Positions 24,499 through 54,663 are shown, counted from the whole stretch's first letter. The stretch is DNA of 54,663 bases, filler included, from Catajapyx aquilonaris (GCA_000934665.2; 2 parts of 2 records of this genome joined end to end with filler, not necessarily neighbours in it); one strand, 5' to 3'. The notes: generated by a model not told the origin, from the sequence alone. A program made the numbers and translations.

Positions 24499-24625
24499 GC
24501 GACAAGCGCAACCTATAGGTGGCTCTGACCGTAGCCACCTGGCGGCTGACCGGTAACTTCTGGGCAGTTTGTACAGAGATCTCTCGTATGCTCGAGCACG
24601 TGCTTCTCGACGTCGAGGTTTCAGG

Positions 24626-28230: not shown

Positions 28231-28965
28231 TTATTTTTATTTATTTTTATTTATTTTCCTTACCCCGGTGGGCATGGTTGCCATTGGGGGGAAACAGCTG
28301 CCAGGGAGATACATTAAGGAGAACCAGTAAATTAACACATGCGCACAGGACGTTGACATGAAAGTTAAATAGGTTGTAGTGATTTTCTGTAGTAAGATCA
28401 TTGGTCATTCTAATCAAGTTGAGACCCGGAGCAGGTGGGAATGCTTGTAAAAATCTACTTCGGGGTGTGGCTAATGCCGGACACTGATAAAGTATGTGGT
28501 ATAGGTTGAAGGGTTCATCGTAATTGCAAAGATCGCAGTGTTCTTCATCACTTAACTTCAGAGATTGCATGTTAATTCTAATAAAGGTGGAGTTATTTTT
28601 TATATTGATAAGCATACGGGTTATTGGAAGAGGTAAGGAGCCTTGGAGATATTGCGTCGTATTCGTCAAACCATGCCTCTTTATAACTGCCATATCTGAA
28701 GGTGTTCAAAAGTTTCGCCAAATCCGCCTGAAAACTATTCGCCGCAAGTTGTTCAAGGTAGCCCTTGATGTCAATATCGTTTATCTGGGCAAGATCTGTA
28801 GCCGAGATTGCAAGGTGTTTCAAGAACTGGTCTATCCAGCACATGCGTGTGGTTTGGCCCGTCGCCAAGATTTGACTTCTGATGTATGCCTTGTGGGGAA
28901 GGGTTTCCTCATCAGCTCTGTCAAATTTAAACAGGAATTTAAATAACGATTTAATTATTCGTGGC
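28231..28965 (-). mobile_element. 5'-truncated non-LTR retrotransposon (C-terminal region with CCHC finger and A-rich tail)
   Basis: RIIK..FKFL..DEETLPHKAY, then HCDLCNYDEPFNLYHILYQCP after a frameshift. (AATAAATAAA)n tail at about 28231-28257. Confidence 0.75.
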
Positions 28966-28969
28966 GTCA

Positions 28970-29686
28970 CGTTCAGGACACCGTTGCACTTGAGAAATTG
29001 AAGGCTCTTCTTCAAGAAATCCATCCATCTATGTAGCACTTGGCAGCACTCATCAGTCGCCATATACTCACCTGGTACTGGCTGAGCCGGCAACATTGCA
29101 GTTCAAATAGGGGTGGTTCGTGTGAAGGATAAGAGAGAGGTAGCTTGAAGTTCAGTACAATTGGTGGCAAGTGAGAGATGTTCTCATCTGCATATCCACC
29201 TGGAAGTTCAAATCACCGGTTAGTCAGAAACCCTTAAGTAGGGTCACGTCATGGATCTGGGCAACGTAACTTGTGACCTCGGCTGGTATTTAATCTCCGA
29301 TCCATGTGATTAATTTTAGAATGCCATTAAATTGGTGTAAATAGTGTAATAAACCGATTGATAAGAAACGTGAAGATGATACTACAGTAGTTACGGATTA
29401 TAGGTATTTGCAAGCACTGAACCCACTCGAGCACGACTGTGCACGAGTGTGTTGTTTCCGTACCTGTTTGTCTGCTTCTTTTCCACTTCAGCTTGATGGT
29501 TGGACCATCAAGTTTAGGCGTTACGTGGATGTCCCCAGCAAACCACCCATCAACAGAGCCACGTTCTAGCTGAATAACCACCTCTTTGTTGAAGAGGCTC
29601 TCCATCAATCTCACAATTTCTGCATTTTGCAAGCCTTTGTTGGTGGTCAAGGCATCGCATCGGTCTGAAAGTGCAAAGGGTGACAT
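28970..29686 (-). pseudogene. RNF14-like RWD-domain gene fragment with introns
   Basis: Exon to 29464 (QNAEIVRLMESLF..GDIHV), GT-AG intron 29463-29200 with CTAAC branch point, exon 29199-29072 (ISHLPPIVLNFKLPLSYPSHEPPLFELQC), then VLHRWMDFLK. These match the RNF14 RWD motifs LPPLVLNFELP.DYPS..PP and VLF.WM.FLK. Confidence 0.7.
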
Positions 29687-29699
29687 AGGTACCACAAAG

Positions 29700-30805
29700 T
29701 GTCCAGTTTTCTGTTTTCTCCACTGGCTCCTTCCATAACAATTACTTGGCATACGTATGCCTACAGCATGGGCTGTACAACCAAGACTGATATTTATCTG
29801 ACCTACTCCTTGCAATGTTTTGTGGGTTACTTTGTTCTCCTCTTTGTCTGATTGAGGACAATTGACGAATAATATCAGGGGATGCTGTATGTTGTATAAC
29901 CATTGGCCACTGTCAGCTATTGACACGAACAAAGGCTCGGGATTAATTACTATAGCCTTTTCGCAGCTTGCATTTTGTTCGTTGAGCCCAGAAAACAGTG
30001 CAAAGAGACACGATGTACTAGGGGTTCTTTCGGCTTGCATAACATTACAGGTCCTAATTCACATGTTCTTAGGTCCACCTCATTAGTTTCGATGTAGAAC
30101 TGTCTATCCTTTGACACTGCAAACAACTCGTGTTTTGGTTTTATTACTGCCATTGCTCTGGAATTATTGATAGGAGCGGGGCACGGAACTACCTTATACA
30201 ACGCAAAGAAATCCTCGTAAGCCTTTAACAGGATTGTTACAATCATTCTGACTATTTGATTCATGGGTAACATCAAGACTTTGGCCCACCTGTAATACAG
30301 CGGGGATAACTAAATGTAATCCGTTGGGTAATAGTGGTTGCATTTCATTTAATCTCATTAAAAACTCCAATGGCTCCATTAATCGCTGATGAAATTTGCC
30401 TTCAATATTGTTTTTTGAAAGATTTGTTCGGTTTCATCTACAGCCTGTCTTCCTTGCAATACTGCAGAATGGATAAATCTGAAAGTCATACTAATAGCAT
30501 GCAGTTCTGAAGCTCTCTCAGCGTGGCCCCATGCCATAACATGCTGGGCCTGTAAGTACTTATTTAATTTATCATGCAGTTCATGCGAAGCGTCTGTTAG
30601 CTTCACTACACCCTGTGCATTTCCTTTTATACTCTCTGAAATTATGGTAACTACAGTAGTTTGTAGATCCTGCAAATGGATTATTTCTCGCGGGTCGTCT
30701 CTCAATTTATTTATGCGTCTTGTAATCTTTTGAATATCCCTCTTGAGTACTCACCCCAAACATACCCTTAAAGGAGGGTTCCTCCAAAACTGAACAACCC
30801 TCTTA
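29700..30805 (-). pseudogene. Baculovirus-F/errantivirus-env-like envelope fusion protein, frameshifted
   Basis: Cleavage site and fusion peptide R|GLFSFGGTLL/KGMFGVSTQE/DIQKI (reconstructed over two 1-nt frameshifts), a heptad region, F.LYKVVPCP, DLRTCELGPVMLC, SCLFALF, QWLY, LQGVGQINISLGC. Confidence 0.8.
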
Positions 30806-31236
30806 CAAATTCGAATTACCAGTCACATTCGCACCACACTGTAAAAGGAGAATGAATATAGGTTACTCGCTCACTCAAAAAACTCGTGATATATACAGTA
30901 CGTTACTTACACGATGACTGATTGCCATATATAACACGACAATTAAACCGTAAATCTCGCTGAGAACCATGACCTGCACTTCTAATTGTCCGATGACTTA
31001 TGACGTGGGGGCATATTATGATTAAAGTAGATACATATCCGGCTATTAGAGTCCACCATCCTGCCTGACTTGTTAGCCAAACGGAAACAAAAATATCTGC
31101 TTCAGCCGTCCGAACCTGCAAGACAATTAGATTACGTAATGCGGTCATTGTCGCGTCATCAACTGTAACTAGACCTCCGGTACCTTCTTCAATTGACCCC
31201 AAATAAGGCAACCGGTTGCAATGGTTGCAAATAGCC
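30806..31236. repeat. Interspersed repeat A, copy 1 (copy 2 at 45992-46455, partial copy 3 at 47829-47899)
   Basis: Near-identical from CAAATT.GAATTACCAGTC to GCAAATAGCC. Copy 1 lacks a ~30-nt segment present in copy 2. Confidence 0.95.
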
Positions 31237-32319
31237 CGCTAATTACACCAATTAGCCCGGCGAACACCCACACTGCAAGTACAGTACATTATTATCAGTC
31301 ACATAAGAATGTAAACGGACAGATACGGTATGTATACAGGATCCATTAGACTTACAACTGGCGTCCTTCCTCATTTTTAAAACGTGAATGGCGATATCGG
31401 CAGCTTCTTCACAATCGACACCGTCAATTTCGTCCGGTAACAATGAAAGTTCTTTCACCGCTCTTGCTATCATTGTCGCCGCTATGAGTCCCACCAGGAC
31501 CCACTAGAAAGAAAGGATCATTGGACAAAATTTGTTACATCGGGAAGAGAAGAGAGAAAAAAATAACATGTTATATTATTACCAAGTGTAGAAAAGCAAT
31601 GATGATGGCACATTGTCTGCTACACATCGTCGGTTCACACGAATACACACGACAAGAATGCAATGCGGGACAAAAAAAGGCAAAATAAATCGGCAAAAAA
31701 GATGTGTGTCAGGTGACACACAAGGTATACAAAGAGACACTAAAAGTGTGCCAAACTGCACAAATAAAAATAAGCAAATTAGTTTCCACTCGTTATCCTT
31801 TATTGCCCAGTAATTAAACCATTACATCATGAGTTCATTACAATAAGGCAATACTCAAGAAATTAATGAATACATTCAAACACATACGGAGCAGCCAGTG
31901 AGCATGCCACTGCGTGCACAGCACTGTAATAACATAAACCTCTGCATAATAATAAAACCCTCACAACATAAGTGAGGCTAATTTGGAATATCGGTTTAAT
32001 GTGGAATACATGAATATCTCTGTAAGCATTACCCTCACATCTATGAAATTAACTTGAAAGTTTCTTCTCCGTGTGAATGAATCAGCCCCACTGTGGAAAG
32101 TTCTTCAAACATCACAATAGCTTCACAAGAGCAATGGATGCCATTCGTGCATGTGTGCACTTCTGAGGAGGCTGTCGAAAAGCAGTTTGTTGCACTGATG
32201 CGGAGGTCGGGGTGAGTTCAACCTGTAGGTCATTGTTAACAGTGACAAACAGAGTATCTTGTGGTCTACAAACGTTGTGGCTATTTGTTTTGTTTCTGTT
32301 GCAAATCAGCTCTAAACAA

Positions 32320-32760
32320 AAGTGATCAAAGACATCACTCAGCTTGTCCAGTGTGACACCTGCTGCAGCCATCTTGGTTATCATGCCCGTAGAAATATGG
32401 TCAGCAAGTGGTGCAAGGCCCATTGCAGTTTGGGTCTTCTTGATATTTTCTTGTTGCATGAGCACAAAGTGTGGGAGTGGAACACAATGTCCGAACAATA
32501 CACTGTCAACATTACAAGAGTTGCATACACCTTCAAGGGCCAACACGTCTGGGCTCCGCTTCGATCGTATTCAGGAAGGTATTTCCGTGCTATAGAGTAC
32601 ACATTTTGTTCGTGGGCTCCTTCTGCCACTTTGTCCTCTTTGTGGAGAGATGTCATCACAACAAGTGTATACACAAGACTCCCACACGACACTTTCAAAG
32701 CTCTCGATGAACCGTTGTTCTTCATGGCATCCATGAGTATATCATACATATTTATTTAGT
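32320..32760 (-). pseudogene. PML/exuperantia-like DEDDh exonuclease fragment with C-terminal helical domain (TE-associated)
   Basis: SLVYTL.V, ARKYLPEYD.SGA/..ALEGV and ISTGMITKMAAAGVTLDKLSDVF resemble the DTL / AH.AL.DV / IS..MA.KIA.SGL...HL pattern. Frameshifted. Confidence 0.5.
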
Positions 32761-32859
32761 ATACCCTGCGAGGCCTAAACTCTGTATGATATGCTGTACA
32801 GCCATGAGGTAAAACAAAAGACCCTTCGCCCATTATAGCTAAATGCGTGCTATTTCCTG

Positions 32860-33290
32860 GTTTGCAATTGCACAGTAGTGGCGTCAATGCAACGATTGAA
32901 CACCTGTGTGTGAAAGTACTTCCTTTCATCCGTCAACCGTTCGTCTTGGGCGAACTCGTCAAAATGTTTCTTAGTTTCTTTGCTCTTTTTCTTGTAAATT
33001 CTGGTTTGACGTTCCACTCCCCTGCCTTCTTTGTCGCGTCAACAACTAGAGCATCAAAATTTCCCCTCATTGAAGCCATTCCGTCCAGAGCGTCCTTTAC
33101 TAATTCAGCGGTTTTTCCAATATCAGCTCCTGGTGACTGTAGTATTTTGGATGCTATATTAATTTTTGACAACATTTTGTACATCATAAAAATTAAAATG
33201 ATTGCATCAAAACTTTCAAAATCTTTCTGGAGAGCCGCAGCCTCATTCTGTTCCTCCTTATTGCGGCCAGTCAGTGCAATGTTTGGTGAG
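32860..33290 (-). mobile_element. hAT (ZMYM1-like) transposase internal fragment
   Basis: EAAALQKDFESFDAII..MYKMLSKINIASKILQSPGADI..A, KRAKK..HFDE, F...VFNRCID...QLQTR. Confidence 0.85.
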
Positions 33291-33309
33291 AAAACTATAT
33301 TTAACGTTG

Positions 33310-34370
33310 GGGGAATATGGATACTCCCAATCGGCATCGTCTCCGGGCTGCGCCGGTTCCCTGGCGTGGTCCCGATTCCGTCGGTTCATCATGGCCCTGA
33401 TCCGTTCTGGAAGTTGCACGGATGAATCTTCTTGCGGCTGGGCGGTTGCGACTTGCTCGTTCGGTACCCCACGCTGACTGCGAGCGTTGGATCCGGAGGA
33501 CCCCGGATCCTGCCCGTCCAGTTCCATGGCACTAGGGTCGCTTCTTCTTCCGCCTCTTGCTGCCGGGACCGCGCGCCCCACGGAACGGGTGGTGTCTCGC
33601 TTCGGGTCCCGCTGGCCAAAGAAACGAGCGTAGTGGTCCCGGAGGCCTCCTTGTGGGCTGCGAGGGTCTGGTCCGACGTCAGCCTGACGTACGGGAGATG
33701 TCTCCTCTGCCACACTCTGCAGCTCCCAAGTGGTCCAGAAGTCACCTCCTGGCGAAAGGGAGCAGGAGCCCACGGCCGTACGATCATCGAAGTGTGCACG
33801 GAATAGTGATACCATTCACCCTTGTTGAATGATCTGAGTTCTTTTAATACCAAAATAAAAGTGGATCGACTTCAATTAATAACAACACTTGGTTTTAATT
33901 CTCGGGTTGGATTTACATTGGTTGTGTCTAAAAATGAGTGTTACATTGACTCGTCTACGGGATGATCACCACCACGATAGTACACACAAATGAACGATAC
34001 TCTACTGTCTTGGGGCATCCTCTATCGGTGGTCACCAGTGGACTTCCTTCCTTCCTTTCTTCCTTCCTTCACGGCACTTGGCTCCAGCACCTCCTCACTA
34101 CCTCTTCATGACTAGACTGTACTGCACACACTGCCCTCTCGTCGCTCCAGTTGTTCCTTTTATGCCCTCTGTTTCTCCAGCTCTTCGTCATCCTCTTGGT
34201 CAATCCCCCCTAGCCAACGCCCCGGAAGGATTGCCCTACATGGTCTTACATGGGCATGCTGATACATCATAGTCATTGTTCTTTAGTAACCGCTGAGTAG
34301 GAGCGAAAGTCACATTTGTTGCTCCTACGTGATACTATCTAGTTACACTCGTTCAGTGGTCAATAACATC
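33310..34370 (-). mobile_element. Possible LTR + PBS + gag N-terminus of an LTR retrotransposon
   Basis: GC-rich, low-complexity ORF 33258-33815. It is preceded on - by TGGTATTAAAAG (degenerate PBS-like) and a ~500-bp non-coding segment with TATA/polyA-like motifs. LTR ends not confirmed. Confidence 0.4.
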
Positions 34371-35284: not shown

Positions 35285-35456
35285 TGATAGGTAAGGCTGG
35301 ACGCGGCTGTGGCCTATAATTACGGTAACGACCCCGGAATTATCCTGCGATGGCCATGGGAAACCACAGAAAACCATGATCAGGGTCGCCGGCCTCCGGG
35401 ATTTGAACCCAGGACCTCCGATTAGCAATCGGACACCATACCACTACTGCTTCGGC
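35285..35456 (-). mobile_element. tRNA-derived SINE
   Basis: On -: GCAGTAGTGGT (A box) ... GGTTCAAATCC (B box), followed by GGTTTTCTGTGGTTTCCC, typical of arthropod SINE bodies. Confidence 0.75.
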
Positions 35457-35473
35457 TGATTTATTTACATGGT

Positions 35474-38400
35474 TCACACATTTTTATAATGGCCAATAGC
35501 TCGGGTCATCTTCCCATCATGCAAAATATGGCGCTTGTCATCAAACGCATTTAGAGCAATTTTCTTAGTAGTAACAGTATGTACATTGTGATCCTTACTC
35601 CTAATGTTAGTCATGGAGCAATATTCTGTGGTCTGCTGTTCAAGTACTTTTCTATATACATTGTGCGTTAGATGTGAGCGACTCTTTTTCCCCACTCCTT
35701 TTGCGGTGGCCTTGTGTGTCATATCCACCATCTCCACTGAATAACACTTAGCTCGCAATCCAACAAAACTCTTAATAATTTCTTCACTCATTTCATCCTT
35801 AAATTTACCAGGGACTTTCTTATTGGTTACATCATGGAGGCGGTGGGTGGGTGGGAATTCTGACAGATCAAAGAGATGCTTATGCTTCAACATGTCCTCA
35901 TAGACATCACTTCCGGTCACATGAATCAGAAAGCTGTCAGTATCGGTGAAACACAATTCGCACTTCTCACCGTACAAAGGAATCAAGTGATTATAGAAAA
36001 AATTGTACATAACCCTCTTGGCCGCCTCCAGAATGCAAAATCCAATAGCAATGGGCTGGTCCAGCACCACATTAATCTTCTGCTTACTCACCAGAACCAA
36101 ATCCGCAGCCAAAATGTTCAAATTCTTAAAACTAGGTTTCTTCATCACTTTTTTTTTTTGCTCTCTTCTCACTCGTAATTAACTCCATATTGACATACTT
36201 TCTGACAGATTGTAACATCTTGCCGTAAATTGAATTATTTGCCAATTTGAATAGACTTTTTTCAAAGTCATTCTGGGCAGCCTTCCTCAAACTTGAATTC
36301 AGGTCGATATAATTTTTCTGCACAGGTGCTTGCTCAAATTGAAGAATTCTGTGGACTTTAGAAAGTTGCAGGCCATGTTGGACATACATCTGCAAGTTCC
36401 TATAATCCACAACATAGTTTCCTTTATCAAGTAAGTTTGGTATCAATTTCTCATTAAATTTGGCATGAGGAAGTGACCTCTGAAAGTTTGATATATGCTC
36501 ATCCTTCACACACATTTTCTCGGGGGCCATTGGGAAATGGGAGTGTTTGTCATGCAGTTCTTTGGGATACTTCAAGTCAACTTCCAAAATATAGCCAATA
36601 GAACTATCATGCGGTGTTGCCATCACCTCATAAATTTTTTCTGTTGACACCCATTCATATCCTCCTATCGGCATGGGTAATGCCATTGCAAAACCATATA
36701 AATTGGTCGCATCGAGATATAATAAAATGGACTCGGGTTTGGATGGATCATACAAGTCACCCATGTAGCGATTATTGGCTTCAGCATACCGCTTGGCCAC
36801 CATGGCAACACCGCCTCTCAAGCCCCTTTCAATGAAGATATGAGCCCCAATTTCACCCCAGTCTTTTTAAACAAGTATCTAGAGAAAGACTGGGAAGAGA
36901 AATATAATGACACGGATCCAAATCGTAATTTAACTTACAGCTCTGAATTGTTGAAAAATGTCAGCCAATAATAATACGTCACTTTTCAGATAATGGTTGT
37001 GAAATTGACCTAAATCATGACACTTTGTCACCTGCCAGACCTTTTGGGCAAAACCATATTCTGCATCAGTAATTCCCTGATTGGTTAGAGAGGGAAAAAA
37101 ACCTTCCTTGGGAGGCAGACATGTTTCCTCAAATTTTTCAAAAGAATCCATATACTCGTAACAATATATTCCTTTTTGGTGGGCACAGTCCAGTACAGCC
37201 GGATCAGTTATGACCTGGCTAGTGATAGGTAGGTTAGAGCCACTTGCAACTAAATTTTTGACCAGAGTGTCCAAACTAGTACTCAAAAAATTGAAGGAGT
37301 CTACAAATACAATATTATTTAGAGTTAAGCAGGTGATTTGTTCGCTGTTTCTAGCTATTAAATGGATCTTATCTCCTTTCAAAGCCTTCACAATGAAATG
37401 TGAGTCATAACGGGTCCAGTTATGGAAAAAGACAGGCACTTTATCGTCCAATCGATATGCCACATTACATTTCTGGTGAGCCACACCCCTATCATTGCCG
37501 GTAACATGACAGTGATCTTTGACAATTACGTCATCAGGTGAGAATGGCTCCTCACAAATGTGGCAGATCGAATTGGCCACTGTGTCGTATTTCTATAAGC
37601 TTGTACTTTGGGTACCAAGTTCTTTACTTCACACTCTACACTCTCCAAAAATTTCTCAACACAATCACGGCCACGATAGAGCCAGAAGTTTACTATTTTT
37701 TCATTCTGATCCGCAATTACATAAGCTACCCCACAAGGAACATGCTTTTTCCCCTCAAATATACATTCTAGATCTGCATAAATTACATATGGCTTGTAAA
37801 GCTGCTTATGAACATTTTTGAAGGCCACAAAATTTTCTTTTGGCATAGATGTGCGCTGTGGGCCAAATTCAAGGCATCGAGCTTCATGCTCTGAACATTC
37901 TTTGTCGAACTTGTTTAAACAATATCGACAATAATAATAATTCATAGTATGATATGAGCCAGTCAGCAGGCGACTCAAGTGACTAATTGTTGCATAGTGT
38001 TGGTTGCCATTTTTCTCCAACAAGAGTAAATCCACGTGAGGGACCCCTCCCTGCATTTTTGTTACACGGATTGGGAATACAATATTTCTTTCAAATCCAT
38101 ATAAGTTTATGGATACAGCATTCAATTTTTCAAATTTAACCAAATCTGTCACCTTCACGGGATTTCCCATCTGTTTCAAACTATTCACTGCATCGCGATA
38201 ATGGTAAGCCTTGGAGGGATGGTCTTTCCCTGGTTTGAGTCCAGCAGCCACAGAATAGTACAAGCAAAGGTCATAAGGTGCATTGACATTAATTATGATG
38301 TGTTTTTTTGCTCGTTCAGGAGGTGTAGGGACATACTGACCACCTTCCCAGGCTTCATAAAGACCAATAAAAACTTCCATTGAATTAAAACTTATTAATG

Positions 38401-42890: not shown

Positions 42891-43043
42891 TCACCTCCTT
42901 TTCACACAAATCAACACTGTAGTTGTATGTCCTAGGTATTACCTAGGACATACAACTACAGTGTTGATTTGTGTGAAAAGGAGGTGACCCGTCTGTGTCT
43001 TGAGCAATCTATACTATAGATTGCTCAAGACACAGACGGGTCA
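42891..43043. repeat. Two abutting perfect palindromes (48-bp and 29-bp arms, 1-nt spacers)
   Basis: 42891-42938 = reverse complement of 42940-42987. 42985-43013 = reverse complement of 43015-43043. The two overlap by TGA. Confidence 0.97.
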
Positions 43044-45049
43044 GCGCACAATCTACCAGAAGCATACTGAGCCAAAACGTCAGGAGTCTTTTACACAGTT
43101 CAACTTGGCCCCAATGATCAGATAGGGGCCCCTTCCTAAACACAAGGTGTGCATATGCGGTTCGCAATAAATGACTGGACGACTTTCAAGCAAACTGATC
43201 AGATCTAGTCAAATAAACAAGTCTAACATTACGCTCCTGTAATATCATGTAAACTGAAGCTGAGATAAGGTCGTTGCAGCTTCAAACTTTGAAGACCTAA
43301 CATAGCTTTTTCCTGTCAATATTAATGAAAGTAATTAATAATGGTACTGCATAACCTGGGATACATCCGGAAATTGGAAGCAACGTTGTTGTGAGGCATG
43401 TTAGCATTGGTCATTTTTCCCCCTTGGGTGGGATATATTGGTCGTTCTTTCACATACAGAAAGTGTAGTTCAGATCATAAAATCACACGCTGAGTCAGCA
43501 TATTCCGACAGAGAATTTTTTAAAATCAGAAGTTACATCACGTTGGAGCCGCTCAGGCTTCACCTACGAGATAGAACCTGAGCGGTCCCAGGAGGGACTT
43601 GTTCCTTGTCACGAAAAAAATTTCATTCATTTTCACCCTTAGGAATTTTTTCTGACAAAGTTATGGAAGGATAGGGGAAAATTCAGTTAAAATGTTAGAT
43701 AGGTTTAAATAGTGGTTGGAGCCTCTCAGGCTCCACCTACGTAGTTAAGGGTTGCAACAAATAAGACAAACTAAAAAATTTGGGCCGACACTTTGAATAA
43801 GCTAATCGGACTTCGTGGTCAGAAATATAGGGCATGGGGTCGCTTCCATATACAAACAGTGGGGAATCATTAAAACTGCTGTAATTTGACATGAGTTGGA
43901 ATTATCACAAATTTTTGCAGATGTCTACGGATATTTATCAATGGAACATGGGTTGAGGCAAGTTCCTAAATTAATTTCCAAAAATACTCGAAATCTGAGA
44001 AGTGTCGGCCAACGGTTACGCCGGTTTAAAATACACTGAATAACTATTATGCTAGACAAATAAGGCCTAACTGATATCGCCGTACTTCGCTAGAAATAAA
44101 TGGATTTGGGTTCAGAAGTACGGCATGTAGCATTACTGATCCTCGCTACGGCAAGGGCGGGGGTGTCGGAGGACTTGCTGTGGCCCTGATGTCACCACCA
44201 GCACGATGGGAACCATCTTTTCTGCTCACGGTACCTGCCTGTCCTTCCGGGCCACGGAGGATTGGTTCTAAGCTGTAGAAACCAGCACCATATTTGGACT
44301 GTAAAGGAAGAGTGGGGAATTAAAGTCTATGGATACTCGAGAAAGTGGTAAATGCTTACGCGTGACAGATGGCAGGCACACACTATGGTGATCAACAATG
44401 CCCCATATCCGATGCAAGCAAGGGAAATGTGGACTTCCATCAGATTGATGCCATTTGGCCCAGCAGCAGTCAATAGTGATCGCCATCACGAACTTCGGCA
44501 GCCGTTGGCGCCACTGCCGAAGTTGACGCATCGGCGGCAGGCACTACTTGATTGGCCTGCACCCCTACAGCTTCCCTCAACGTCGCCGACAATTCTGCTT
44601 GGCGGCGTCGACTCTCATGTCGGCGAATACCTTATTCCTTCCGACGGCCCCGCCGATCGAGGTGCAGATGTCCTTTTTTCCTGCTGGCGCCCTTGTTTGG
44701 TCAAAGCCAGCTCCTATCTCCATTTCCGTCAGTACGCCTCTCTGTCACGTACCTCCTCGAGAAAATTGGAACTCCGTTTGGTTCTGTACCGTCGCCCTGG
44801 ACCTCGCAGCAGCGGGTTCTACGAAAGAAGAAAGGTCTTGTAATTAACAGCTCATCTGCAGAATCATGTTCGTCACACATTTTAAGTACCTGTGCATAAA
44901 ATTCCTTCCCACTCTTGGACACATCTATTTTGGACAAAAGCTAAAGCATCTTAACATCTCGTGCTTTCTGTGGTTTTACATGATTGTCTCTGGCTAGCAA
45001 GGGTATATTCGCAAAGCCAATCTATATGTACTTTTTAGTACCACACTTT

Positions 45050-45805
45050 TTTCCCATAGACTATTGTGCAGGCCTGACAGTACATGCTCTTGACATTCAC
45101 ATCCAGCACCCTTCCAGTTTTGTTCTCAATGATTGTTTGGACTCCAAAAGCCGAAGTGAACCCACGCTGTCGCCAAGACCCATCCCCTGACACTTTGACA
45201 CTGTTCCCCTCTTCAGTCATCATCTTATCTCCAGCAGCTTGGCTCATTACCTTTTCACACACACTCTTTGCACTTTCCTTTATGTTCAAGGATACACTGT
45301 CATAGGTCTTTTGCGCCACTGGTTTTGGTAGGTCCATAACTGCAGAAAATGTCTCATTTGCCGCTCTACCACATCCTAACAGTCGCATTGCCAAGCCCAT
45401 TCTTTTATTTACACAGTACTGGCTTTTTGGGGGCCCAATTTGGTTGCAGGAGTCAACTTTTCCCAGAGTGTCGCAATTCTTGCATGTCACCACAAGTTTG
45501 AAGCCGAGTCCTCTGCAGTCACTTTTAGTAAATTCAACTTCACCAGCACACTTGTGGCACCGCAGAAGGAGTTGCAGGTGGTTGAAAACTTTGACAAAGT
45601 TGATGATTTCGTGCTCGACGTCACTCGACACTTGCGGTGAGTCACGCGACTCGGAGTCGGCAGCTGCCTGTGTTGCTGCGACGACACATCGCGGCGTAAT
45701 TACACAGCTGATTCTCCTGTGCATCTGTGAAGATCCTTCGACAGGCATAATTAGGAGAAGTTCGAATATCTTCACCTGGATGAGCCTTCTTCCTTTTAAC
45801 GTACC
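45050..45805 (-). mobile_element. Kolobok-like ('Mutator-like transposase' domain) DDE transposase, N-terminal half
   Basis: CHKC..GLGFKL...CKNC, VNKR..LAMRLLG.G, VSGDGSWRQRGFTSAFG, TGRVLDV.VKS.YCQAC. Truncated after the CxxC. Confidence 0.8.
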
Positions 45806-45991
45806 TGAAAAGAATAATAATTGTCAGTTTTTACCATTAGCTTATGTGCATGAGCTAACAGGGTCACATTCTTTTAATACTTACTCATACAAGGTTTGGA
45901 AAGAAACACATTTTTCTTGAGCAGCTTTCCTCATGCTCAGCCCCGTTTCAGTCAGTGCCTGTGCTTCAGCCATTGCTTGGGCATTTGGGCC

Positions 45992-46455
45992 CAAATTAGA
46001 ATTACCAGTCGCATTCGCACCACGCTGTAAAAGGAGAATGAATATAGGTTACTCGCTCACTCAAAAAACTCGTGATATATACAGTACGTTACTTACACGA
46101 TGACTGATTGCCATATATAACACAACAATTAAACCGTAAATCTCGCTGAGAACCATGACCTGCACTTCTAATTGTCCGATGACGTATGACGGGGGGCATA
46201 TTATGATTAAAGTAGATACATATCCGGCTATTAGAGTCCACCATCCTGCCTGACTTGTTTTCTGCCAAAAAAAAATTGGCACCGGAAGGGAACAGCCAAA
46301 CGGAAACAAAAATATCTGCTTCAGCCGTCCGAACCTGCAAGACAATTAGATTACGTAATACCGTCATTGTGGCGTCATCAACTGTAACTAGACCTCCGGT
46401 ACCTTCTTCAATTGACCCCAAATAAGGCAACCGGTTGCAATGGTTGCAAATAGCC
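45992..46455. repeat. Interspersed repeat A, copy 2
   Basis: Near-identical to 30806-31236. Confidence 0.95.
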
Positions 46456-47089
46456 GGCTATGGGTAGATGCCTGGCTACCCAGATGGGACGAAAATACTG
46501 TATGTGGCCAATAGTAATGGCCAGACTGCGATGTCCCAACATTAGCAAAATATCCCCGGTCACATCCACACCCTGACACAGTCCATCCTAGGTTTGTCAT
46601 GCTATGATTATCATGCTGATACGTAACCTGCTCCCTAGGCAACCCCTGTAAGGTGATTGGGTCCGCCTGTCAGGGGATCTCCCTACAAAGAGGTGCCAGG
46701 TGTGTTGCCACATGTGTATAGGGGTAGGCCAATGTATCCGATCATCCACCTCATCACCGGTCGGTCCCCTGACTTTTCTTCTTCCTACATTTTCAACTTG
46801 TTTTGGGTAAATGAGCATGCTGTTTGCTGGTTGACCTTCCCGTAAGATACACACTGTATAATGCTATTCCATACCTACCATTTCTAGGGTACAATATTAT
46901 GACATCAGAATATATTTTCCGTGGTTTTGTCATAGCCACCCGGGCAGAACCAATCACCATCTGGGATATCCTTCATGGGTGGCTTGAGGGTTTGGCGCCG
47001 GGCCTTTATGGTCGGGTCGCCGTAACTCTGACAAAGTCACATCCACACCGGTCATTACGTCTCTGGTGTCAAGCACAGACACCCCTCTC

Positions 47090-47511
47090 ACTTCTTCCCA
47101 TATGGCCTCACCGCGCAAGTGCACTATCATGAGCCAGGAGTTGGCCGCCAATAATTGAACTTCCGTGTGTTTGGAATCGAGGCAAAGGTAGAGAGATACG
47201 TGGTCCTCGTCCTCGACAGATTACAAACGCAGCATCCACTTATTTGGAATGGAAGGATAATCTGCGTCGATTGGGAACAATGGCGACAATAATATCTGCT
47301 CGTTGCCTTCGTCTGGTCTTGCGCTGAAGTTGTAAATGTTCCAGTGAAAGTTGATGGCTTCTCCGACTAGTACGGCTTCAGGTCCATCCAGTTGGACATC
47401 TAGACAAGATCCTGTAGGGGAAGCCAGACCACTCCATCTCAACAGCAACACTGCTCCAGCACAGCAGGCCATTATTATCGCCGTCGCCACTATAATACGC
47501 ATACTAGCCAT
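47090..47511 (-). pseudogene. SPOP-like MATH-domain gene with hydrophobic N-terminus; premature stop
   Basis: MASMRIIVATAIIMACCAGAVLLL...FHWNIYNFS...SPLF...KWMLRL*SVEDEDHVSLYLCL...LMIVHLRGE reads in one frame through TAA at 47223-47221. Confidence 0.7.
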
Positions 47512-48807
47512 CCTTGTTGGAATGGACAGGACGGTCCTCTGGGAGGCTGTGTATGGGGACTCTAGCTAGATTCAACGCGACCGTGTCCCTGGCCAGCGGC
47601 GTCCCAACATAGGACATTGCTGGAAGAAGCCATGACGTGTGTCTTATTACCCACATGGCAGCGATCAAACCCGTTGTGGCAGGCCGAATCTGCAAGTTGG
47701 TAAAAGGTTGGAAACCACTGCGTTAAATCTACATCATGTATCTAGGTGCTGCAAACTGGCTCGGGGGAATGGGGAGAGGAGGGTAGAAGCAGGAAATCAA
47801 TGAATCCGTGTTCAGCAGCAGTAGCATATGGGCCCAAATTCGAATTACCAGTCACATTCGCACCATGCTGTGAAAGGAGAATGAATATAGGTTACTCGCC
47901 CACTGTACTGTGGGTAATGCAACAAATGATGATGCTTGTTTATGGGACTCACATCTGGAAATAACTTCTTAAAGAGCAGGTTGTGTTCAATAATTATGAG
48001 TTCATTGAGACATGCCAGTAGGCAGTGAGACACAATTAGAGCAATTATTATTCCACTGATTCGTAAGAGGAGGACAAGAAGTTGGATATACGAGTTGTAG
48101 GCACTTTTTCTGCAAGTATGAAGGGCAATACTCGTAGTAAACACCATCAAAATACTTGGCGGGAATCTAATCAATACATGTGAATATTGGTATGGATGCT
48201 TTGAAAGGAAATGGGAGAGGGGAAGAAACCTGATGCCTAGGGTGGTCCTTAGGCCAAATCAAAATCCATGCCAACATATCAATAAAAAGCACTGGCACTG
48301 GAGTATCAAGGAATTGATCCAAAATCCCACTTGCTCCAGAATTCCAATCACTTCCTGACCATCTCTGCTCTCCTCAAACCCACTTGCTCCAGTCCCTCAC
48401 TCTAATACCTGTTTCAGTTACCTGCGCATCTATCAATCAAAAATTACTAAAGCATGTGTTTAAATTGTGCATTGTGGAGTACAAGTTTCCAAAGTATTTT
48501 TGAGGAATGTGTTGACACTTTAGTCACTGGCTTGCCACACAGTTGGACCTCCTAATGGTATTCTTTTAGTTTTTTGAAATTGCGTAGTCTGCGAGTGTGT
48601 GCGAGCGTGTGCGAGCGAAATGCCAGAGTATACCAGCTTCCCCCGCCTGTACAGAAAGTAATTCTGGTGGCGTCTGCCTTCATGTCCTTCTTCCTCGTCC
48701 GTGCCGGCGACCAAGGAACCAGGCTGGAACATCACATGCCCATCTCATGTCCATCCTGGACAGACTTTTTGGGTATCATAGGTCTACAGTAATTGCACAA
48801 CACATGG

Positions 48808-50251
48808 CTATGGTTGGTAAATAAGGATTCTCCATGACACTTCATTGATCAGAGGGAGGACTTCTGTCGTGTCAAGCAATTTTTCAAAATCTCGAGTGTT
48901 AAGCACCTTGCCCTGATTGACCAACAAAAACTGCAAGAGGTCCATCGAATCGGCTTCGTGCACCGCTACCGGGATCCTGATGGTGGTGTCCACCGTGATG
49001 CTGTCGGTCAGGATGTTCTCGCATAGTCTCTTCAGGTCGTCCAAATTGTTCTTGTGGGCCAAGACCAGGAGGTCTGACACCACGCCGACGCTTTTAGGAT
49101 TCTGCAAACAAGAGGGCTAACTCACTCGCTCACCTTGTAGCCTGTGAACGTGTACGTTCCTGTTTGGTTATTTAGCGTCGTGTATAGGAATAGCAGATTA
49201 GTTCCATTGGAATTGAGAGAAGAAGCTCGGTAGGAATTAACTGTGAAATCAGGGTGTCCCCATCCCTGTTGATAATTTACATTCTTAATAAGTAATTAAT
49301 AAGCGAAATATTAATAAGCAATAAGTTACTTGTGTGTAGGTCTACTGTAGCAATGGGCAACCACTCTCAACGGAAGTTCCAATCCCTTCATTTGGTCCCA
49401 GGTGTTGCTCATCAGGACTTCCAACATTCTGTATTGAGTTTCGCACGACTCGGTATGGGTTTGGTCGACCCAGTGTCTGGCCTGAATGTCACAGGCTATG
49501 TGCAGAGTGTCGTTGTCCCAGTCCATGGAGGACCTCGGAATGAATTTGGAGTGTCGCCAACAGGGTTAGCCATCGTAATTTTCTTCCAGAAACTTGCTGG
49601 GAGTTTCCCTGTTTGTTTTTTTAATTTATTTTTTTATTTTAACACACAGTCATGTAGTAAGTAAATAACTTTTTTTTAAGGGTGGAGCAGTCAAATGCTG
49701 GGATTTAGCATGGTTTTGCCCTTTTTTTAAAATGAATTTTTAAGGCACACCATTTTGGAATGTTTGGAATGGGGAGTAGTGGTATGTCCAGGATCTTTGA
49801 TGGAGATTGGGGAAGCTTTGCTGAAAATGATTTCTGGTTGCCAAGTGCTCCGGGTTATAAAGTTTGTCATTCGGCTATTGATTTCGGGTATGGAGAGGGT
49901 AATAAATAAATAAATAAATAAATAAATACCAACTTGGTGTTGGTGGTGGCTGTGGTGGTGGCGGTGGTTGAGTACTGGTAGTTGTTGACCAAGACGTTGA
50001 AGTGAAAGTCTTCCAAGTGGACATCTGGCTGTGTGGGCTCTAGGCACACATGAATGCCAGGTGGCCAACCAGAGAATCCATTTTGTGGTGGAAACCGGGA
50101 AGGGCGGCGACTTATTGGGTAGCTCGCCTCGCATGGTGAGGTTGTGGATGGTCCATCGGAATCCGGGTGTATTATTCGATCGTAGTGGCAACATTACACA
50201 GGCTATTATTATTACTATTGTTGCCACAGCTTGTTTATGGGTGCTGGCCAT
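48808..50251 (-). pseudogene. SPOP-like MATH-BTB-BACK gene with hydrophobic N-terminus; disrupted
   Basis: MASTHKQAVATIVIIIACVML..FRWTIHN..SPPF..KWILWL, FHFNVL, W.HSKFIPR...NDTLHIACDI, and DLLVLAHKNNLDDLKRLCENIL..SITVDT. TATAAAG about 45 nt upstream. Frameshift near 50050 and a LINE insertion. Confidence 0.75.
49680..49928 (+). mobile_element. Short LINE 3' fragment with (TAAA)n tail inserted in the MATH-BTB gene
   Basis: HTILEC motif and (AATA)n tail at 49901-49928. Confidence 0.5.
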
Positions 50252-50383
50252 CGTGTCTCTCTAGTTGGGAGGTTCCTGTGTAGTTGCTTGCTTTATATGG
50301 AAGGGGAGAGGGGGATAGATAGGAAGAGCATGAAAGGTCTGGTTATGGAGATCTGGGTAGGAGGTCAGCTGTAGGCGACCCTT

Positions 50384-50595: not shown

Positions 50596-52379
50596 ATAAT
50601 ACATATCCCTCCTTGCCCTATAACACCCCCCCCCCTCAAAAATCAAGATGTAATATAATATTATCTCTGCTGGTTAATTTAGATTATGTTTATTACTTTT
50701 CTCATTACATTGATCTGATTATAAGTTATGCATACATAATAAGTGCTGGAAGGAACATCACTTTGTCATCAACTAATGTAAAGTCTGTTGCAATTAGATT
50801 GCAGGTGGTGATGAGTCTTTCGTTCGTCTCTCCTTCGCATGGCGTAGCCACCCTGTCATTGCTACTTCAATGTCTTTGTCACGTTCCTCCTAATTCTAGT
50901 TCCATGCATCTTGACTGCATCTGAAAATTTCACTCAATACTCCCTATTTCATGGGGGTGAGTAGGACTACCTCGGGCGGTTAAACTAACACAGCTTTACT
51001 TGTACATGGAAGGTCTTCGCCATCCTATGCGCTGATAGGACCATAACCCTGCGGGGAAAATGAGTCCATGGGTCGCGTTGAACTACGGCAAGGTCCTAGG
51101 TCCTTCCTTATCAACGGCTTCATACTCCGGATCGTGTAGGAGCCGTAGGGAAAACGGGGCACTAAGTCCATGATTATGCCAACAGTCTCCTCTTCTTCGT
51201 TCGTCCGTCTGGGGTTAAACCGGGAACAGGGTCTAGGACTAGGATGGGTCCCGGACATGAACAGGATGACAGGGTTAAAATAGCGATCGATGGGTGTGAC
51301 CTCCGTCTGGGGATAAGGGAAAATGACGTGCCCAGGGGGGTTTGAGGCAATGTCAAACAGGAAAAATGGGGTGGGACCCAAAGCCAGGTCACCAACCCCG
51401 AGGACAAGGGTGGCGGGGCCCTCCCCGAGTGAGGGAGAGTTCCAAGTGCGGTCAATTCAATGAGGCACATCCATCCGAGTCGGGTGTGTGTGGACACTGG
51501 CCATGTCCTGTTGGTGTTGATGCTCATCGTTCTGGTTCACGGAATCTTGGTTTTCGTCGTCTGACAGGTCCAGGTCACTGTCATCAAGGTATTGCAGGAT
51601 AGCATCATGATCAGCATAGCGTGCTGAAATACGAGTTGCCGGATTACGAAGTGCTCCCATGGAGTAGTAAGCTGCTAACTCCATAAACAGGTGCTCCTGT
51701 CATCAACCTAAATGTGATTAGCCCAGGTTTATAGTAGTCAGGAAAAGATGGAGGGATAGGTCCATCGGGCAAAGCGTGAAATGGAGTGAGAAAAGGAAGG
51801 TCATTATGCCATCGTGCAATCGGCCCAGTGGGACTCCTTCAGATTTTTTGGACTCTCCGTGGCGGTTGAGGCAGAGAGTTGGAAGGCAGGAAATGCTGGG
51901 GACGAGGAAATCGGTTGTGTTAGCTGCATTTCCCTTTCCATTTGTTCCCGCAGTTCAATGATCGGGAGTAGTTCCTCCATAGTGGTAGCCCATGCGGTTT
52001 GTGCCTGCTCCCTCCCTTTTCCCCCCAGGGCCGCCTCCGCGTTTCTTTCTTCGATCCTAGGAGGCGAAGCCCTTGTCACCAACCTCGGGTCAACTAGCGG
52101 CCACTTGTTCTCAGGTGGCGGCCAACTGATTTCCGGTGAGAGCTGCGCCTGGGCGTTGGCAATTTCCGCATAAAGTTCATGCGGATTCAAAGTGGTTGGA
52201 AGTTCCAGTTTTTTTGGTGTAGTCCACTGGACACTTGGTGGTGCAACAGGGGTGGCGAAGACCTTGGTGCTTGCCGACATAATTTCACCCACCAAGTCGC
52301 AGCTTCGCAGGGTCATCTTTTGTGTGGTCCTGATGTCTGGATCACAAGAACTGGCGCAAATGATGCAAATGATTCCTTG

Positions 52380-52744
52380 TGCCAACCTTTAGGTACGTCT
52401 ATCTTCTTCGCAACGGCGAAGTCATAGGCCAGTTTCATCACATTTTTTCTACTGAGGCCGTAGTGCAATCTTGATGCGGTGATGTAATACTCTGCAATAG
52501 CTGCTTCCTCTTCCTCCGTAAACACTTGTCCAGTGCGGAAATTCGGCGTAAAAGATATGGTCTTATCTGGCGAAGCTGCCCTCAACTTGTGAATGTAACG
52601 TGACAGGGTCTGTTTGTCAATACCAAATTTCAGTGCTGTAGGGCTTAGCTTCTTTTGCTGCTCTACGACTTCTCGTACTGCTTTCTCCATAACAGTAGCA
52701 GGAACGGGGTGGCGGTCACTTTTGGGCTTCCAATTTCGAGGCAT
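52380..52744 (-). mobile_element. pogo/Tigger-family transposase N-terminus (HTH_psq + CENP-B-type HTH), truncated
   Basis: MPRNWKPK..MEKAV.EV...A.KFGI.K.TL.R, VFTEEEE..IAEY...SRLHYGLS...VMKLAYDFA....P..W. Confidence 0.85.
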
Positions 52745-53225
52745 GTCAGCAAATCGTCCTACACACAAGAACAGACCTACGTAAGTAAATTTTGTCCAAA
52801 AGTATGTTAAGACACTTTTTATCACCCTACTCTTATGCTGAGATATGCAGTACTGAGTATAACTTACTGGTTATGCCAATTTGTTATGTTAATTTATCAT
52901 TACATGCACCAAAATTATTATATGCATTCCATGGGGAGGCTTATTGAGACACGTCTCAAGCCTCCGCATATGCCCTGTCTCAATGCTCCCCATCGTGCAT
53001 AATCGGTGCTGTCCAATAATGTTGGCACATGGCGTCTGCCTATGTAGTCCTGCTGATAGGTAACACATTCATTATATCGAGGAGGAAAAATGGCTCATAT
53101 CCCTTCAGATATTTTTCGTCCAGAAAACACGAAAGGGATAGGAAAGGGATAGGGAACAGCATTGTGGGTGGGATAGGTAAGATGGATAGCATAGTACAAA
53201 ACGTATGATACAAAAAGTAAAACTG

Positions 53226-53560
53226 TCACAACAGTATAGGCCAGAATTGTGTATTTGAACTTTTTGTTATGGGAATGGCATCTGTATTTATCTTTAAAGA
53301 AAATTTAGTTTTGTGCTGGTCAATTGCTCCCCTTTTGATGGCACGAATAATTCCATATGTGATGCCCAAATGAAAGAATTTTCCACCATCAACGACCCTG
53401 ACTTTTGCATCAGAAATTACTGAATTAGGACAACACATCAGTGTTCGTGGATCTTTGGGCAAATCATTAGCGTGGCCATGTATTCTCAATACTCTCAGTA
53501 AATCTCTCTGAAAAGTCGCTGTAACTTCATGCTTCACAAGTCACTGCTGAAGATCAGTTG
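53226..53560 (-). mobile_element. EnSpm/CACTA transposase fragment
   Basis: LL.VLR.HG..LPKDPRTLM, GGKFFHLGI, LKINTDAIPITKSSNTQFWPIL. Confidence 0.85.
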
Positions 53561-53604
53561 CAAGTGTCACAAGTAAGGTCAAGGGTCATTGACCTCCGAC
53601 CACT

Positions 53605-54162
53605 TGTATAGTTCTTTTTGGTCTCCCGGGTTACACCTTGGAATAAATCGGCGGCTGGGTCTTTTCCATTGTTTATTGACATCAGCTAATAATCTATTGT
53701 CCCAGAATCATTAGGCAACCCGAGTATCAGTTCTGACCTTTGCAACCAGGGTCATCTCCGCGGGTAAGTCAAACCGGGAGGCCGTGCTACCACGCAGGGG
53801 GTCTGCTCCTCCCTCTACAGAAATGGCTGCCCGGGGCTGGGCGAATAAGAGTTGGTTTGGGACTCCTCTGGACCCTCCTTTCTTCTAGACAACTCCCTCA
53901 GGAACGGGCCCCGAGTAGGTTGGGTGGAGCCTTTATATAGCTGACTCCGACCTTGTTGTGACAGAACTGATACCAGGGTGCTATCACCTTACGCGAGTCA
54001 TACTCCTCCTGTGACCAAATATGGTTCCCCCGCCTTCTTGGCGCCAGGCTAAATCGGCTTGTTTACTTATTCCTCTGCCAAATGGCTAAAACTGGGAAGC
54101 TTTTTCCCTAATAATTTACCATTAGTGTCACTATATTTCGGTGACAGGTTATAAGGGTGACA
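53605..54162 (-). mobile_element. Probable 3' LTR of an LTR retrotransposon; internal region continues to the window end
   Basis: On -: purine tract AAGGGGAAG just before TGTCACC (54162), then TATATAAAG (about 53939), AATAAA (about 53677), ending TATACA (53605). Confidence 0.6.
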
Positions 54163-54663
54163 AACGCTTCCCCTTGAATTAAAGCTGGGCGCAACCCGGC
54201 TTTAATGTCATACGGACAGTATGACTCACGCAGTATACAGTAACTGGATAAACCCTTTTTCTACTCACATTATTAACGACTCCGTCAAAACAATTTTCTA
54301 TGGCTAATCTGTACTATACAGCTCGGCTGCGGGGGTTTAGAGGGGAAGGGACACCACCTGGATGTCCTGCCTCTAGTCTTCTGGCAGGAGGACGACCACC
54401 TGGTTATCTGGCCGGCGAATGTTGAAGGTGATTACCTCCTGAGGGCATCTCACCGCATCCACTCGCTCCCTTAGATAAAAGGAATTGCAGGTGTAATTAG
54501 CCAAAGAGGCCTTACCACCTGTGGGCAACAAACCAACAATGTCCGGCTCCCAGATCCATAGAGTCAGGGGCCGGGGCATACGAAACGTTCCAAGTCAATA
54601 TTGTCCCAAGGAAGAACCGGAGCCGAAGCCCCAGGCCCCCGGAACCAGCATTAGCCCAAGCCC

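What the first reader, a model, noticed from the sequence alone, without database searches (positions are those of the whole stretch)
28231..54663. Candidate uni-strand (flamenco-like) piRNA cluster: unrelated TE, viral and host-gene fragments almost all in one orientation
Seen: 15 orientable fragments lie on the - strand (two LINEs, RWD, F-env, DEDDh exonuclease, hAT, gag/LTR, SINE, pPolB, Kolobok-like, two MATH genes, pogo, EnSpm, LTR). Only two are on +, and both are short LINE ends nested inside other fragments. The pieces are short, come from unrelated superfamilies, and no intact host gene is present. Established: uni-strand piRNA clusters such as Drosophila flamenco and EVE-rich mosquito clusters accumulate TE and viral fragments antisense to their transcript. 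Inference: a + strand precursor would yield antisense piRNAs against DNA transposons, a Polinton-like virus, an env gene and possibly host RNF14/SPOP paralogs.
Basis: partly seen in the sequence, partly recalled or inferred. Interest (0 to 1): 0.85.

Follow-up and report, generated by a model that had tools for sequence, protein, structure and literature searches.

The report
One-way transposon debris, unproven piRNA cluster
A 27-kb stretch of dead transposon, virus-like and host-gene fragments really does point mostly one way, as a one-strand piRNA cluster would, but the bias is only modestly beyond chance and no RNA data could be found to test it.

Summary
The strand bias is real but weaker than reported. 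Tools support 8 to 11 orientable fragments on the minus strand: RWD, baculovirus-F-type env, hAT, tRNA-like SINE head, protein-primed polymerase B, a Mutator-like transposase, a pair of decayed MATH-BTB paralogs, pogo-type HTH, a weak LINE 3' end, and a CMC/EnSpm lead. One LINE 3' end lies on plus.

Two-sided binomial p is 0.07 to 0.006, depending on which fragments are counted and how dependent ones are merged. This scan has notes on 316 windows of this genome, so several such windows are expected by chance.

No LTR or inverted-repeat pair brackets the region, so it is not the cargo of one element.

A 100-nt spacer (44 N, TTAATTAATTAA, 44 N) at 27287-27386 looks like an artificial join. The elongase genes on the left cannot be taken as neighbours.

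No RNA run was listed, so the piRNA reading stays untested (about 0.28). The content is unlike flamenco: almost no Gypsy.

The scan flagged the same layout on another piece of this genome (e1-7506408), also without RNA.

The parts
27287..27386 (.). Spacer of 44 N + TTAATTAATTAA + 44 N. It looks like an artificial or scaffold join, so the TE-rich piece starts at 27387.
   Evidence: Read directly; N runs located.
28231..28705 (-). LINE 3' end: CX2CX9HX4C knuckle and a short A-rich tandem tail (weak support).
   Evidence: Pfam zf-RVT E 0.034. tblastn of 20 LINE ORF2 proteins gives 4 hits at 28424-28600, best E 0.03, at their C-terminus. Tandem repeat at 28231-28257. The large-database search found nothing.
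29015..29212 (-). RWD-domain fragment, a host-gene pseudogene piece. The RNF14 identity was not tested.
   Evidence: Pfam PF05773 E 5.6e-8, 33.4 bits against a cut-off of 22.8.
29330..30309 (-). Baculovirus-F-type envelope gene fragment, frameshifted.
   Evidence: Pfam PF12259 in two adjacent ORFs, profile positions 314-372 and 384-480, E 1.5e-4 and 2.9e-5, just under the cut-off.
30806..31241 (.). Copy A of an unclassified ~450-bp interspersed repeat. Its sense is unknown.
   Evidence: 97-100% identical in blocks to 45992-46460, same relative orientation, unrelated flanks.
32856..33319 (-). Internal fragment of a hAT transposase.
   Evidence: E 1.3e-34 to a 615-aa ZMYM1-like protein carrying PF14291 and PF05699. 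tblastn places residues 299-452.
35388..35459 (-). tRNA-Ser(GCT)-like sequence, a likely SINE head.
   Evidence: ARAGORN. No Rfam match at gathering score.
35477..38599 (-). Protein-primed DNA polymerase B gene of Polinton/Maverick type. It lies in four ORFs, broken by frameshifts and at least one stop, with no other Polinton gene recognised nearby.
   Evidence: Pfam PF03175 E 3.9e-9 and 7.1e-9, plus Endonuclease_7 E 5e-6. A single-frame read-through match covers profile positions 8-403.
38518..38936 (+). LINE ORF2 C-terminus with a (TTGGTTCTC)n tail. This is the one confirmed plus-strand fragment.
   Evidence: 167 relatives at E<=1e-3, best 1.1e-12, matching the extreme C-terminus of 1000-1231-aa proteins. 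14 of 14 long hits carry RVT_1 and 12 of 14 carry the endonuclease domain. tblastn E 4.8e-12. Tandem repeat at 38901-38936.
45038..45823 (-). N-terminal part of a Mutator-like transposase.
   Evidence: Pfam PF20700 E 1.1e-24, profile positions 3-201 of 357.
45992..46460 (.). Copy B of the ~450-bp repeat. A 81-bp piece of a third copy lies at 47824-47904.
46957..47565 (-). MATH-domain pseudogene piece with an in-frame stop at 47221-47223.
   Evidence: Pfam PF22486 MATH_2 E 4.5e-4 when the stop is read as X.
48811..50260 (-). Second decayed MATH-BTB (SPOP-like) copy: MATH start at 49730-50260 and BTB/BACK end at 48811-49116.
   Evidence: PDB phmmer: 9 of 9 hits are SPOP, best E 0.031, residues 269-340 of 374. 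The MATH start aligns to the other copy at E 4e-4. Pfam, PDB and the large database found nothing for 49730-50260 alone.
52316..52870 (-). N-terminal DNA-binding part of a pogo/Tc5-type transposase. No DDE domain follows it.
   Evidence: Pfam HTH_28 E 3.3e-4. Atlas: arthropod HTH_psq / HTH_Tnp_Tc5 clusters at 0.95-0.96 with 201-213 shared features. PDB: none.
53229..53540 (-). Possible CMC/EnSpm-type transposase piece (lead only).
   Evidence: Atlas: a Transposase_21 cluster at 0.88 (24% of members) and a Plavaka cluster at 0.84. No Pfam hit.

Best explanation
The stretch 27387-54663 is an ordinary repeat-rich debris field. Successive insertions and deletions left short, broken pieces of unrelated mobile elements: LINE, hAT, Mutator-like, pogo, a Polinton-type polymerase and an errantivirus-type env. 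They sit among decayed copies of host genes (an RWD gene and two MATH-BTB paralogs). Most recognisable pieces lie on one strand through chance, helped by shared history. The two MATH-BTB copies are paralogs that probably kept their orientation by descent. The RWD piece abuts a LINE 3' end and may have arrived with it. Shown: the identity, decay and orientation of the pieces, and the absence of a bracketing repeat. Inferred: that no selection for orientation is needed.
For: - The bias is nominally modest. Two-sided binomial p is 0.070 (7 of 8), 0.039 (8 of 9) and 0.0063 (11 of 12). The scan has notes on 316 windows of this genome, which gives 2 to 22 such windows by chance.
- The strand-symmetric ORF screen shows no general coding asymmetry. 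There are 76 plus and 72 minus ORFs of at least 60 aa, holding 6778 and 7984 residues.
- Some fragments are not independent: the MATH starts are paralogous.
- Every coding piece is broken or truncated.
- Poly(A) hexamers are not depleted on the proposed precursor strand. AATAAA plus ATTAAA number 49 on plus and 30 on minus, p 0.04 in the opposite direction.
- The content lacks the Gypsy enrichment that defines flamenco-like loci.
Against: - Every Pfam hit above the curated cut-off lies on minus: 4 of 4 ORFs among the 149 scanned on both strands.
- ORFs of at least 150 aa number 15 on minus and 4 on plus.
- The bias includes DNA transposons, for which no insertion-orientation preference is known.
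- With lenient counting, p reaches 0.006.
That would be less expected under pure chance.
Confidence: 0.45

Rival explanations
1. One-strand piRNA source locus. A long plus-strand precursor is transcribed across the stretch and processed into piRNAs antisense to the minus-strand fragments. Antisense insertions are kept because they silence the matching elements.
For: - 8 to 11 supported fragments lie on minus and 1 on plus, from unrelated superfamilies. All are decayed and no intact gene is present.
- If 85% of insertions were antisense, 8 of 9 or better has probability 0.60, against 0.02 one-sided at 50%.
- One-strand clusters with antisense content are established in Drosophila and in mosquitoes (passages of PMC10643416, and of bioRxiv 10.1101/2022.08.22.504762).
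- piRNA clusters are also reported in crustaceans (search listing only: PMC9175491 and bioRxiv 10.1101/2025.05.30.656998).
Against: - There is no direct evidence of any transcript or small RNA.
- In flamenco-like clusters the bias is carried only by Gypsy elements and the loci span 227-1085 kb. Here there is one env fragment and 27 kb.
- Mosquito core clusters are enriched in RNA-virus EVEs and start at the end of an upstream gene. Here no RNA-virus domain was found, and the upstream context is cut off by a spacer.
- Poly(A) hexamers are more frequent on plus.
- Such clusters occupy a small share of a genome: 0.15% for Aedes core clusters.
Confidence: 0.28
2. The stretch lies inside a long intron or downstream region of a plus-strand host gene. 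Sense-oriented insertions, which bring termination and splice signals, were removed by selection, leaving mostly antisense ones.
For: An antisense bias of intronic TEs is established in mammals (abstract starts of PMC3517506 and PMC1794541 in the search listing). The observed direction would fit a plus-strand gene.
Against: - No plus-strand exon or domain was found in 27387-54663.
- No elongase exon lies beyond 24517.
- The known intronic bias is mild. At 62% antisense, 8 of 9 or better has probability 0.09 and 11 of 12 or better 0.03.
- Poly(A) hexamers are not depleted on plus.
Confidence: 0.15
3. The fragments travelled together as the cargo of one large element (an LTR element, Polinton or Helitron-like carrier) or of a segmental duplication, so their common orientation reflects a single event.
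For: A ~450-bp repeat occurs twice in the same orientation, 15.2 kb apart, at 97-100% identity in blocks.
Against: - The flanks of the two copies are unrelated, and a third partial copy lies 1.8 kb further on. This is an interspersed repeat, not an LTR pair.
- No long-range inverted repeat brackets the region.
- No Polinton gene other than the polymerase was recognised.
- The material between the copies is old and broken, while the copies themselves are young.
Confidence: 0.04

Closest known systems
flamenco and flamenco-like one-strand piRNA clusters of Drosophila (PMC10643416, passages seen)
   Same: Decayed transposon fragments mostly on one strand, including an env-type gene. No intact genes.
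   Different: Those loci span 227-1085 kb, are enriched in Gypsy elements, and their strand bias is driven only by Gypsy. Expression and piRNA strand bias (7- to 70-fold) were shown. Here there is 27 kb, one env piece, a bias carried by DNA transposons, a Polinton polymerase and pseudogenes, and no RNA evidence.
Mosquito core piRNA clusters made by read-through from an upstream gene (bioRxiv 10.1101/2022.08.22.504762, passages seen; PMC7161354, listing only)
   Same: One-directional loci that collect virus-derived and TE fragments in antisense orientation.
   Different: They are enriched in non-retroviral RNA-virus EVEs and start at the end of an expressed same-strand gene. Here no RNA-virus domain was found, and the apparent upstream plus-strand elongase genes are separated by an N-TTAATTAATTAA-N spacer, so adjacency is unknown.
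Antisense bias of transposons inside host-gene introns (PMC3517506, PMC1794541; abstract starts in the listing)
   Same: Predominance of one orientation without any small-RNA function.
   Different: No enclosing gene or plus-strand exon is visible here. That bias is documented mainly for LINEs and LTR elements in mammals and is milder.

Membership tests
flamenco-like one-strand piRNA cluster | Strong predominance of transposon fragments on one genomic strand | tested here: met
   8-11 supported fragments on minus and 1 on plus. Nominal p is 0.04 to 0.006.
flamenco-like one-strand piRNA cluster | Enrichment in LTR/Gypsy elements, with the bias carried by Gypsy (PMC10643416) | tested here: not met
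   Only one Baculo_F env fragment. There were no RT, integrase, protease or gag hits among 149 + 150 + 65 ORFs and 40 read-through chains on both strands. Pfam is insensitive to decayed pieces.
flamenco-like one-strand piRNA cluster | Size of hundreds of kb (227-1085 kb) | tested here: inconclusive
   27.3 kb lies between the spacer at 27386 and the window end. The right end is open, and the left end is a join or gap.
flamenco-like one-strand piRNA cluster | Long precursor transcribed from one strand; abundant 24-31-nt 1U piRNAs with several-fold strand bias | not testable with these tools
Mosquito-type read-through core piRNA cluster | Starts directly after the transcript end of an expressed upstream gene in the same orientation | tested here: inconclusive
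   Plus-strand elongase genes end near 23.5 kb, with a truncated first exon at 24251-24517. A 100-nt N/TTAATTAATTAA spacer at 27287-27386 breaks the continuity.
Mosquito-type read-through core piRNA cluster | Enrichment in non-retroviral RNA-virus EVEs in antisense orientation | tested here: not met
   No RNA-virus domain in any ORF scanned. The virus-like pieces are a protein-primed PolB and an F-type env.
Polinton/Maverick element (as carrier of the block) | Terminal inverted repeats enclosing pPolB, integrase, packaging ATPase, protease and capsid genes | tested here: not met
   Only the polymerase was found. No long-range inverted repeat.

The most novel reading that the evidence does not exclude
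This contig is part of a one-strand piRNA cluster of a non-insect arthropod (earlier notes guess a crustacean). Its archive is dominated not by Gypsy elements or RNA-virus EVEs but by DNA transposons, a Polinton-type polymerase, an errantivirus-type env and host RWD and MATH-BTB pseudogenes. Its piRNAs could then also reach host paralogs.
Probability: 0.25. Interest if true: 0.5.

Novelty: already known. Interest (0 to 1): 0.25.

Why it matters
If small RNAs showed this to be a one-strand cluster, it would add a non-dipteran example with unusual content: DNA transposons, a Polinton polymerase and host pseudogenes. It would also give a handle on whether orientation selection acts on all element classes. 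As it stands, it mainly illustrates that a 10:1 orientation count in one 27-kb window is not enough to call a cluster. An empirical genome-wide null and small-RNA maps are needed.

Tried and rejected
- RNA evidence: the look-up of sequencing runs (kind rna, 28231-38230) listed no RNA holder. This is no evidence either way. Read laying could not be used without runs.
- Whole genome: none is held for this window, so no genome-wide strand-bias background could be computed.
- Long six-frame read-through scans (4500 aa each) were less sensitive than ORF-wise scans and were not repeated.
- Short ORFs of 40-59 aa and stop-read-through chains added nothing on either strand. The exception was MATH_2.
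- The LINE(-) ORF and the MATH ORF 49730-50260 found no relatives in the large database at longer lengths.
- PDB searches of 47224-47565, 49730-50260, 32115-32570, 28596-29102 and 52316-52870 gave nothing usable.
- 32384-32755 matched only one blade of designed 'Pizza' propellers. I judged this spurious, and it is not an exonuclease.
- I rejected these weak Pfam hits as chance or as shadows of the opposite strand: zf-H3C2 (plus, opposite the Mutator ORF), GATA, 7tm_6, zf-C2H2, DUF3873, TEADIR3 and T4-Gluco-transf.
- I considered read-through from the elongase array, or from the truncated elongase exon at 24251-24517, as the source of a plus-strand precursor. I dropped the idea once the spacer at 27287-27386 was seen.
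- Homopolymer A/T tails as an extra orientation marker were too few to use.
- Earlier-findings look-ups by place (near and relatives) and by the repeat's sequence returned nothing.
- Supplementary files of the papers were not seen. Cluster coordinates or criteria given there could refine the comparison.


Full report
WHAT THE WINDOW HOLDS

The window has two unlike parts.

- Bases 1-24.5 kb carry a tandem array of fatty-acid elongase (ELO, PF01151) genes on the plus strand. The array ends in a truncated, frameshifted first exon at 24251-24517, and no further ELO exon lies downstream.
- Next come plus-strand ORFs with a weak SWIM finger and a YqaJ-type nuclease domain at 24886-26234.
- A 165-bp satellite in direct and inverted copies follows at 26.0-27.3 kb.
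- At 27287-27386 the sequence reads 44 N, TTAATTAATTAA, 44 N.

From memory, not from a call: a spacer with stops in all six frames is a device for joining separate contigs. I therefore treat 27387-54663 as a piece of its own. I do not use the elongase genes as its neighbours.

CHECKING THE OBSERVATION WITH A STRAND-SYMMETRIC SCREEN

I scanned all 149 stop-to-stop ORFs of at least 60 aa between 28179 and 54594 against Pfam (77 plus, 72 minus).

- Ten ORFs had a hit at E<=0.01: nine on minus and one on plus.
- The four ORFs above Pfam's curated cut-off are all on minus:
  - RWD at 29015-29212;
  - DNA_pol_B_2 at 36135-36866;
  - DNA_pol_B_2 at 36933-37592, which also carries Endonuclease_7;
  - Mutator-like transposase at 45038-45823.
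- Two adjacent minus ORFs hit Baculo_F collinearly, just under the cut-off.
- HTH_28 marks 52316-52870.
- The single plus hit (zf-H3C2, E 0.0033) lies opposite the Mutator ORF, and I take it as a shadow.
- 215 further ORFs of 40-59 aa added only chance-level hits.
- 39 chains of ORFs read through stops with X (23 plus, 16 minus) also added only chance-level hits.
- A fortieth chain, 46957-47565 on minus, gave MATH_2 at E 4.5e-4 across an in-frame stop.

ORFs of at least 150 aa number 15 on minus and 4 on plus. ORFs of at least 60 aa are balanced at 76 and 72.

EVIDENCE BEYOND PFAM

- hAT: the ORF at 32936-33385 matches a 615-aa ZMYM1-like hAT protein at E 1.3e-34. Only residues 299-452 survive.
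- Plus-strand LINE: the ORF at 38518-38838 has 167 relatives at E<=1e-3. In proteins of 1000-1231 aa the match sits at the very C-terminus. Of 14 such long relatives, 14 carry RVT_1 and 12 carry the AP endonuclease domain. This is a LINE ORF2 end, followed by a (TTGGTTCTC)n tail.
- LINE survey: tblastn of 20 long LINE proteins over the whole window found, at E<=1e-3, only this plus-strand piece. At E<=5 there is a weak cluster at 28424-28600 on minus, best E 0.03. That agrees with a weak zf-RVT hit and a short A-rich tandem tail. No second LINE appeared on either strand.
- SINE head: ARAGORN finds a tRNA-Ser-like sequence at 35388-35459 on minus.
- BTB/BACK: the ORF at 48811-49116 hits only SPOP chains in the PDB (9 of 9, best E 0.031).
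- Second MATH: the ORF at 49730-50260 aligns to the MATH start of the other copy at E 4e-4. This makes two decayed MATH-BTB paralogs.
- pogo: the Atlas places 52316-52870 with arthropod HTH_psq/HTH_Tnp_Tc5 clusters at 0.96.
- CMC/EnSpm: the Atlas gives only a lead for 53229-53540, scores 0.88 and 0.84.
- Not found: a DEDDh exonuclease, gag or an LTR. Pfam also missed the hAT piece, so these negatives are weak.

IS IT MORE THAN CHANCE?

I counted only well-supported fragments and merged the MATH-BTB pair. Two-sided binomial p values:

| Count | Fragments included | p |
|---|---|---|
| 7 of 8 | strict set | 0.070 |
| 8 of 9 | plus the tRNA-like head | 0.039 |
| 11 of 12 | plus all weak items | 0.0063 |

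The scan already holds notes on 316 windows of this genome.

CARGO OF ONE ELEMENT?

- Within 24-54.7 kb the only long-range repeat is a ~450-bp unit at 30806-31241 and 45992-46460. The copies are 97-100% identical in blocks with one 34-nt indel.
- A 81-bp piece of a third copy lies at 47824-47904.
- The flanks of the copies are unrelated, so this is a young interspersed repeat and not an LTR pair.
- No inverted repeat brackets the region, and no Polinton gene besides the polymerase was recognised.

The cargo explanation is rejected.

IS IT A piRNA CLUSTER?

The one search for sequencing runs listed no RNA holder, so expression and small RNAs remain untested. Comparison with the literature cuts both ways.

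- Flamenco-like clusters were defined by LTR enrichment and strand bias in 100-kb windows. They span 227-1085 kb, and their bias is carried only by Gypsy elements (PMC10643416, passages).
- Mosquito core clusters are one-directional, are enriched in antisense RNA-virus EVEs, start at the end of an upstream same-strand gene, and cover 0.15% of the Aedes genome (bioRxiv 10.1101/2022.08.22.504762, passages).
- Here the content is DNA transposons, a Polinton-type polymerase, one env piece and host pseudogenes. The upstream context is cut by the spacer.
- Poly(A) hexamers are more frequent on the proposed precursor strand: 49 on plus against 30 on minus. This speaks weakly against long-standing selection for read-through on plus.

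WEIGHING

- If 85% of insertions were antisense, as in a well-ordered one-strand cluster, 8 of 9 or better has probability 0.60.
- At 62%, a mild intron-type bias, it is 0.09.
- At 50% it is 0.02, one-sided.

One-strand clusters take up a small share of a genome. With that low prior, and with uncertainty about how many fragments are independent, I put my estimates as follows:

| Explanation | Estimate |
|---|---|
| Ordinary debris with a chance or partly inherited bias | about 0.45 |
| One-strand piRNA source | about 0.28 |
| Antisense retention inside a plus-strand gene | about 0.15 |
| Single-carrier cargo | about 0.04 |
| Other | remainder |

EARLIER NOTES OF THE SCAN (unchecked)

- The same layout was flagged on another piece of this genome and confirmed in layout only, without RNA (e1-7506408).
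- A further candidate did not hold up (e1-7594389).
- Another note guesses a crustacean host (e1-7499587).

VERDICT

The kind of feature is known, and interest is low to moderate until small-RNA data exist.

Noticed in passing
window 27287-27386: 44 N + TTAATTAATTAA + 44 N. This looks like a six-frame-stop spacer joining two separate sequence pieces, so the left and right halves of the window may not be neighbours in the genome.
   Followed up: partly
window 1-24517: Tandem array of at least five plus-strand fatty-acid elongase (ELO) genes, ending in a truncated, frameshifted first exon at 24251-24517.
   Followed up: partly
window 24886-26234: Plus-strand ORFs with a weak SWIM zinc finger (E 0.024) and a clear YqaJ-type nuclease domain (E 2.2e-15) in an open 286-aa ORF. 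Probably a gene of a mobile or virus-like element; family not determined.
   Followed up: no
window 26071-27286: 165-bp satellite present in both direct and inverted copies (214-nt arms, 94% complementary), running up to the spacer.
   Followed up: no
window 28231-29212: An RWD-domain pseudogene piece directly abuts a LINE 3' end on the same strand. It could be a chimeric retrocopy made by template switching; untested.
   Followed up: no
window 36933-37592: The Polinton-type polymerase carries an Endonuclease VII-like zinc motif (PF02945, E 5e-6) just before its polymerase domain.
   Followed up: no
window 42891-43043: Perfect 48-nt palindrome (arms 42891-42938 and 42940-42987), with a second overlapping palindromic match to 43043. 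It could be a foldback element or an assembly artefact.
   Followed up: no
window 41330-42039: 65-bp direct repeats, 97% identical and 645 bp apart, bound a stretch that holds the longest plus-strand ORF of the region (265 aa, no family).
   Followed up: no
window 21016-21268: Weak plus-strand LINE reverse-transcriptase-like match between elongase genes (6 tblastn hits, best E 0.017).
   Followed up: no
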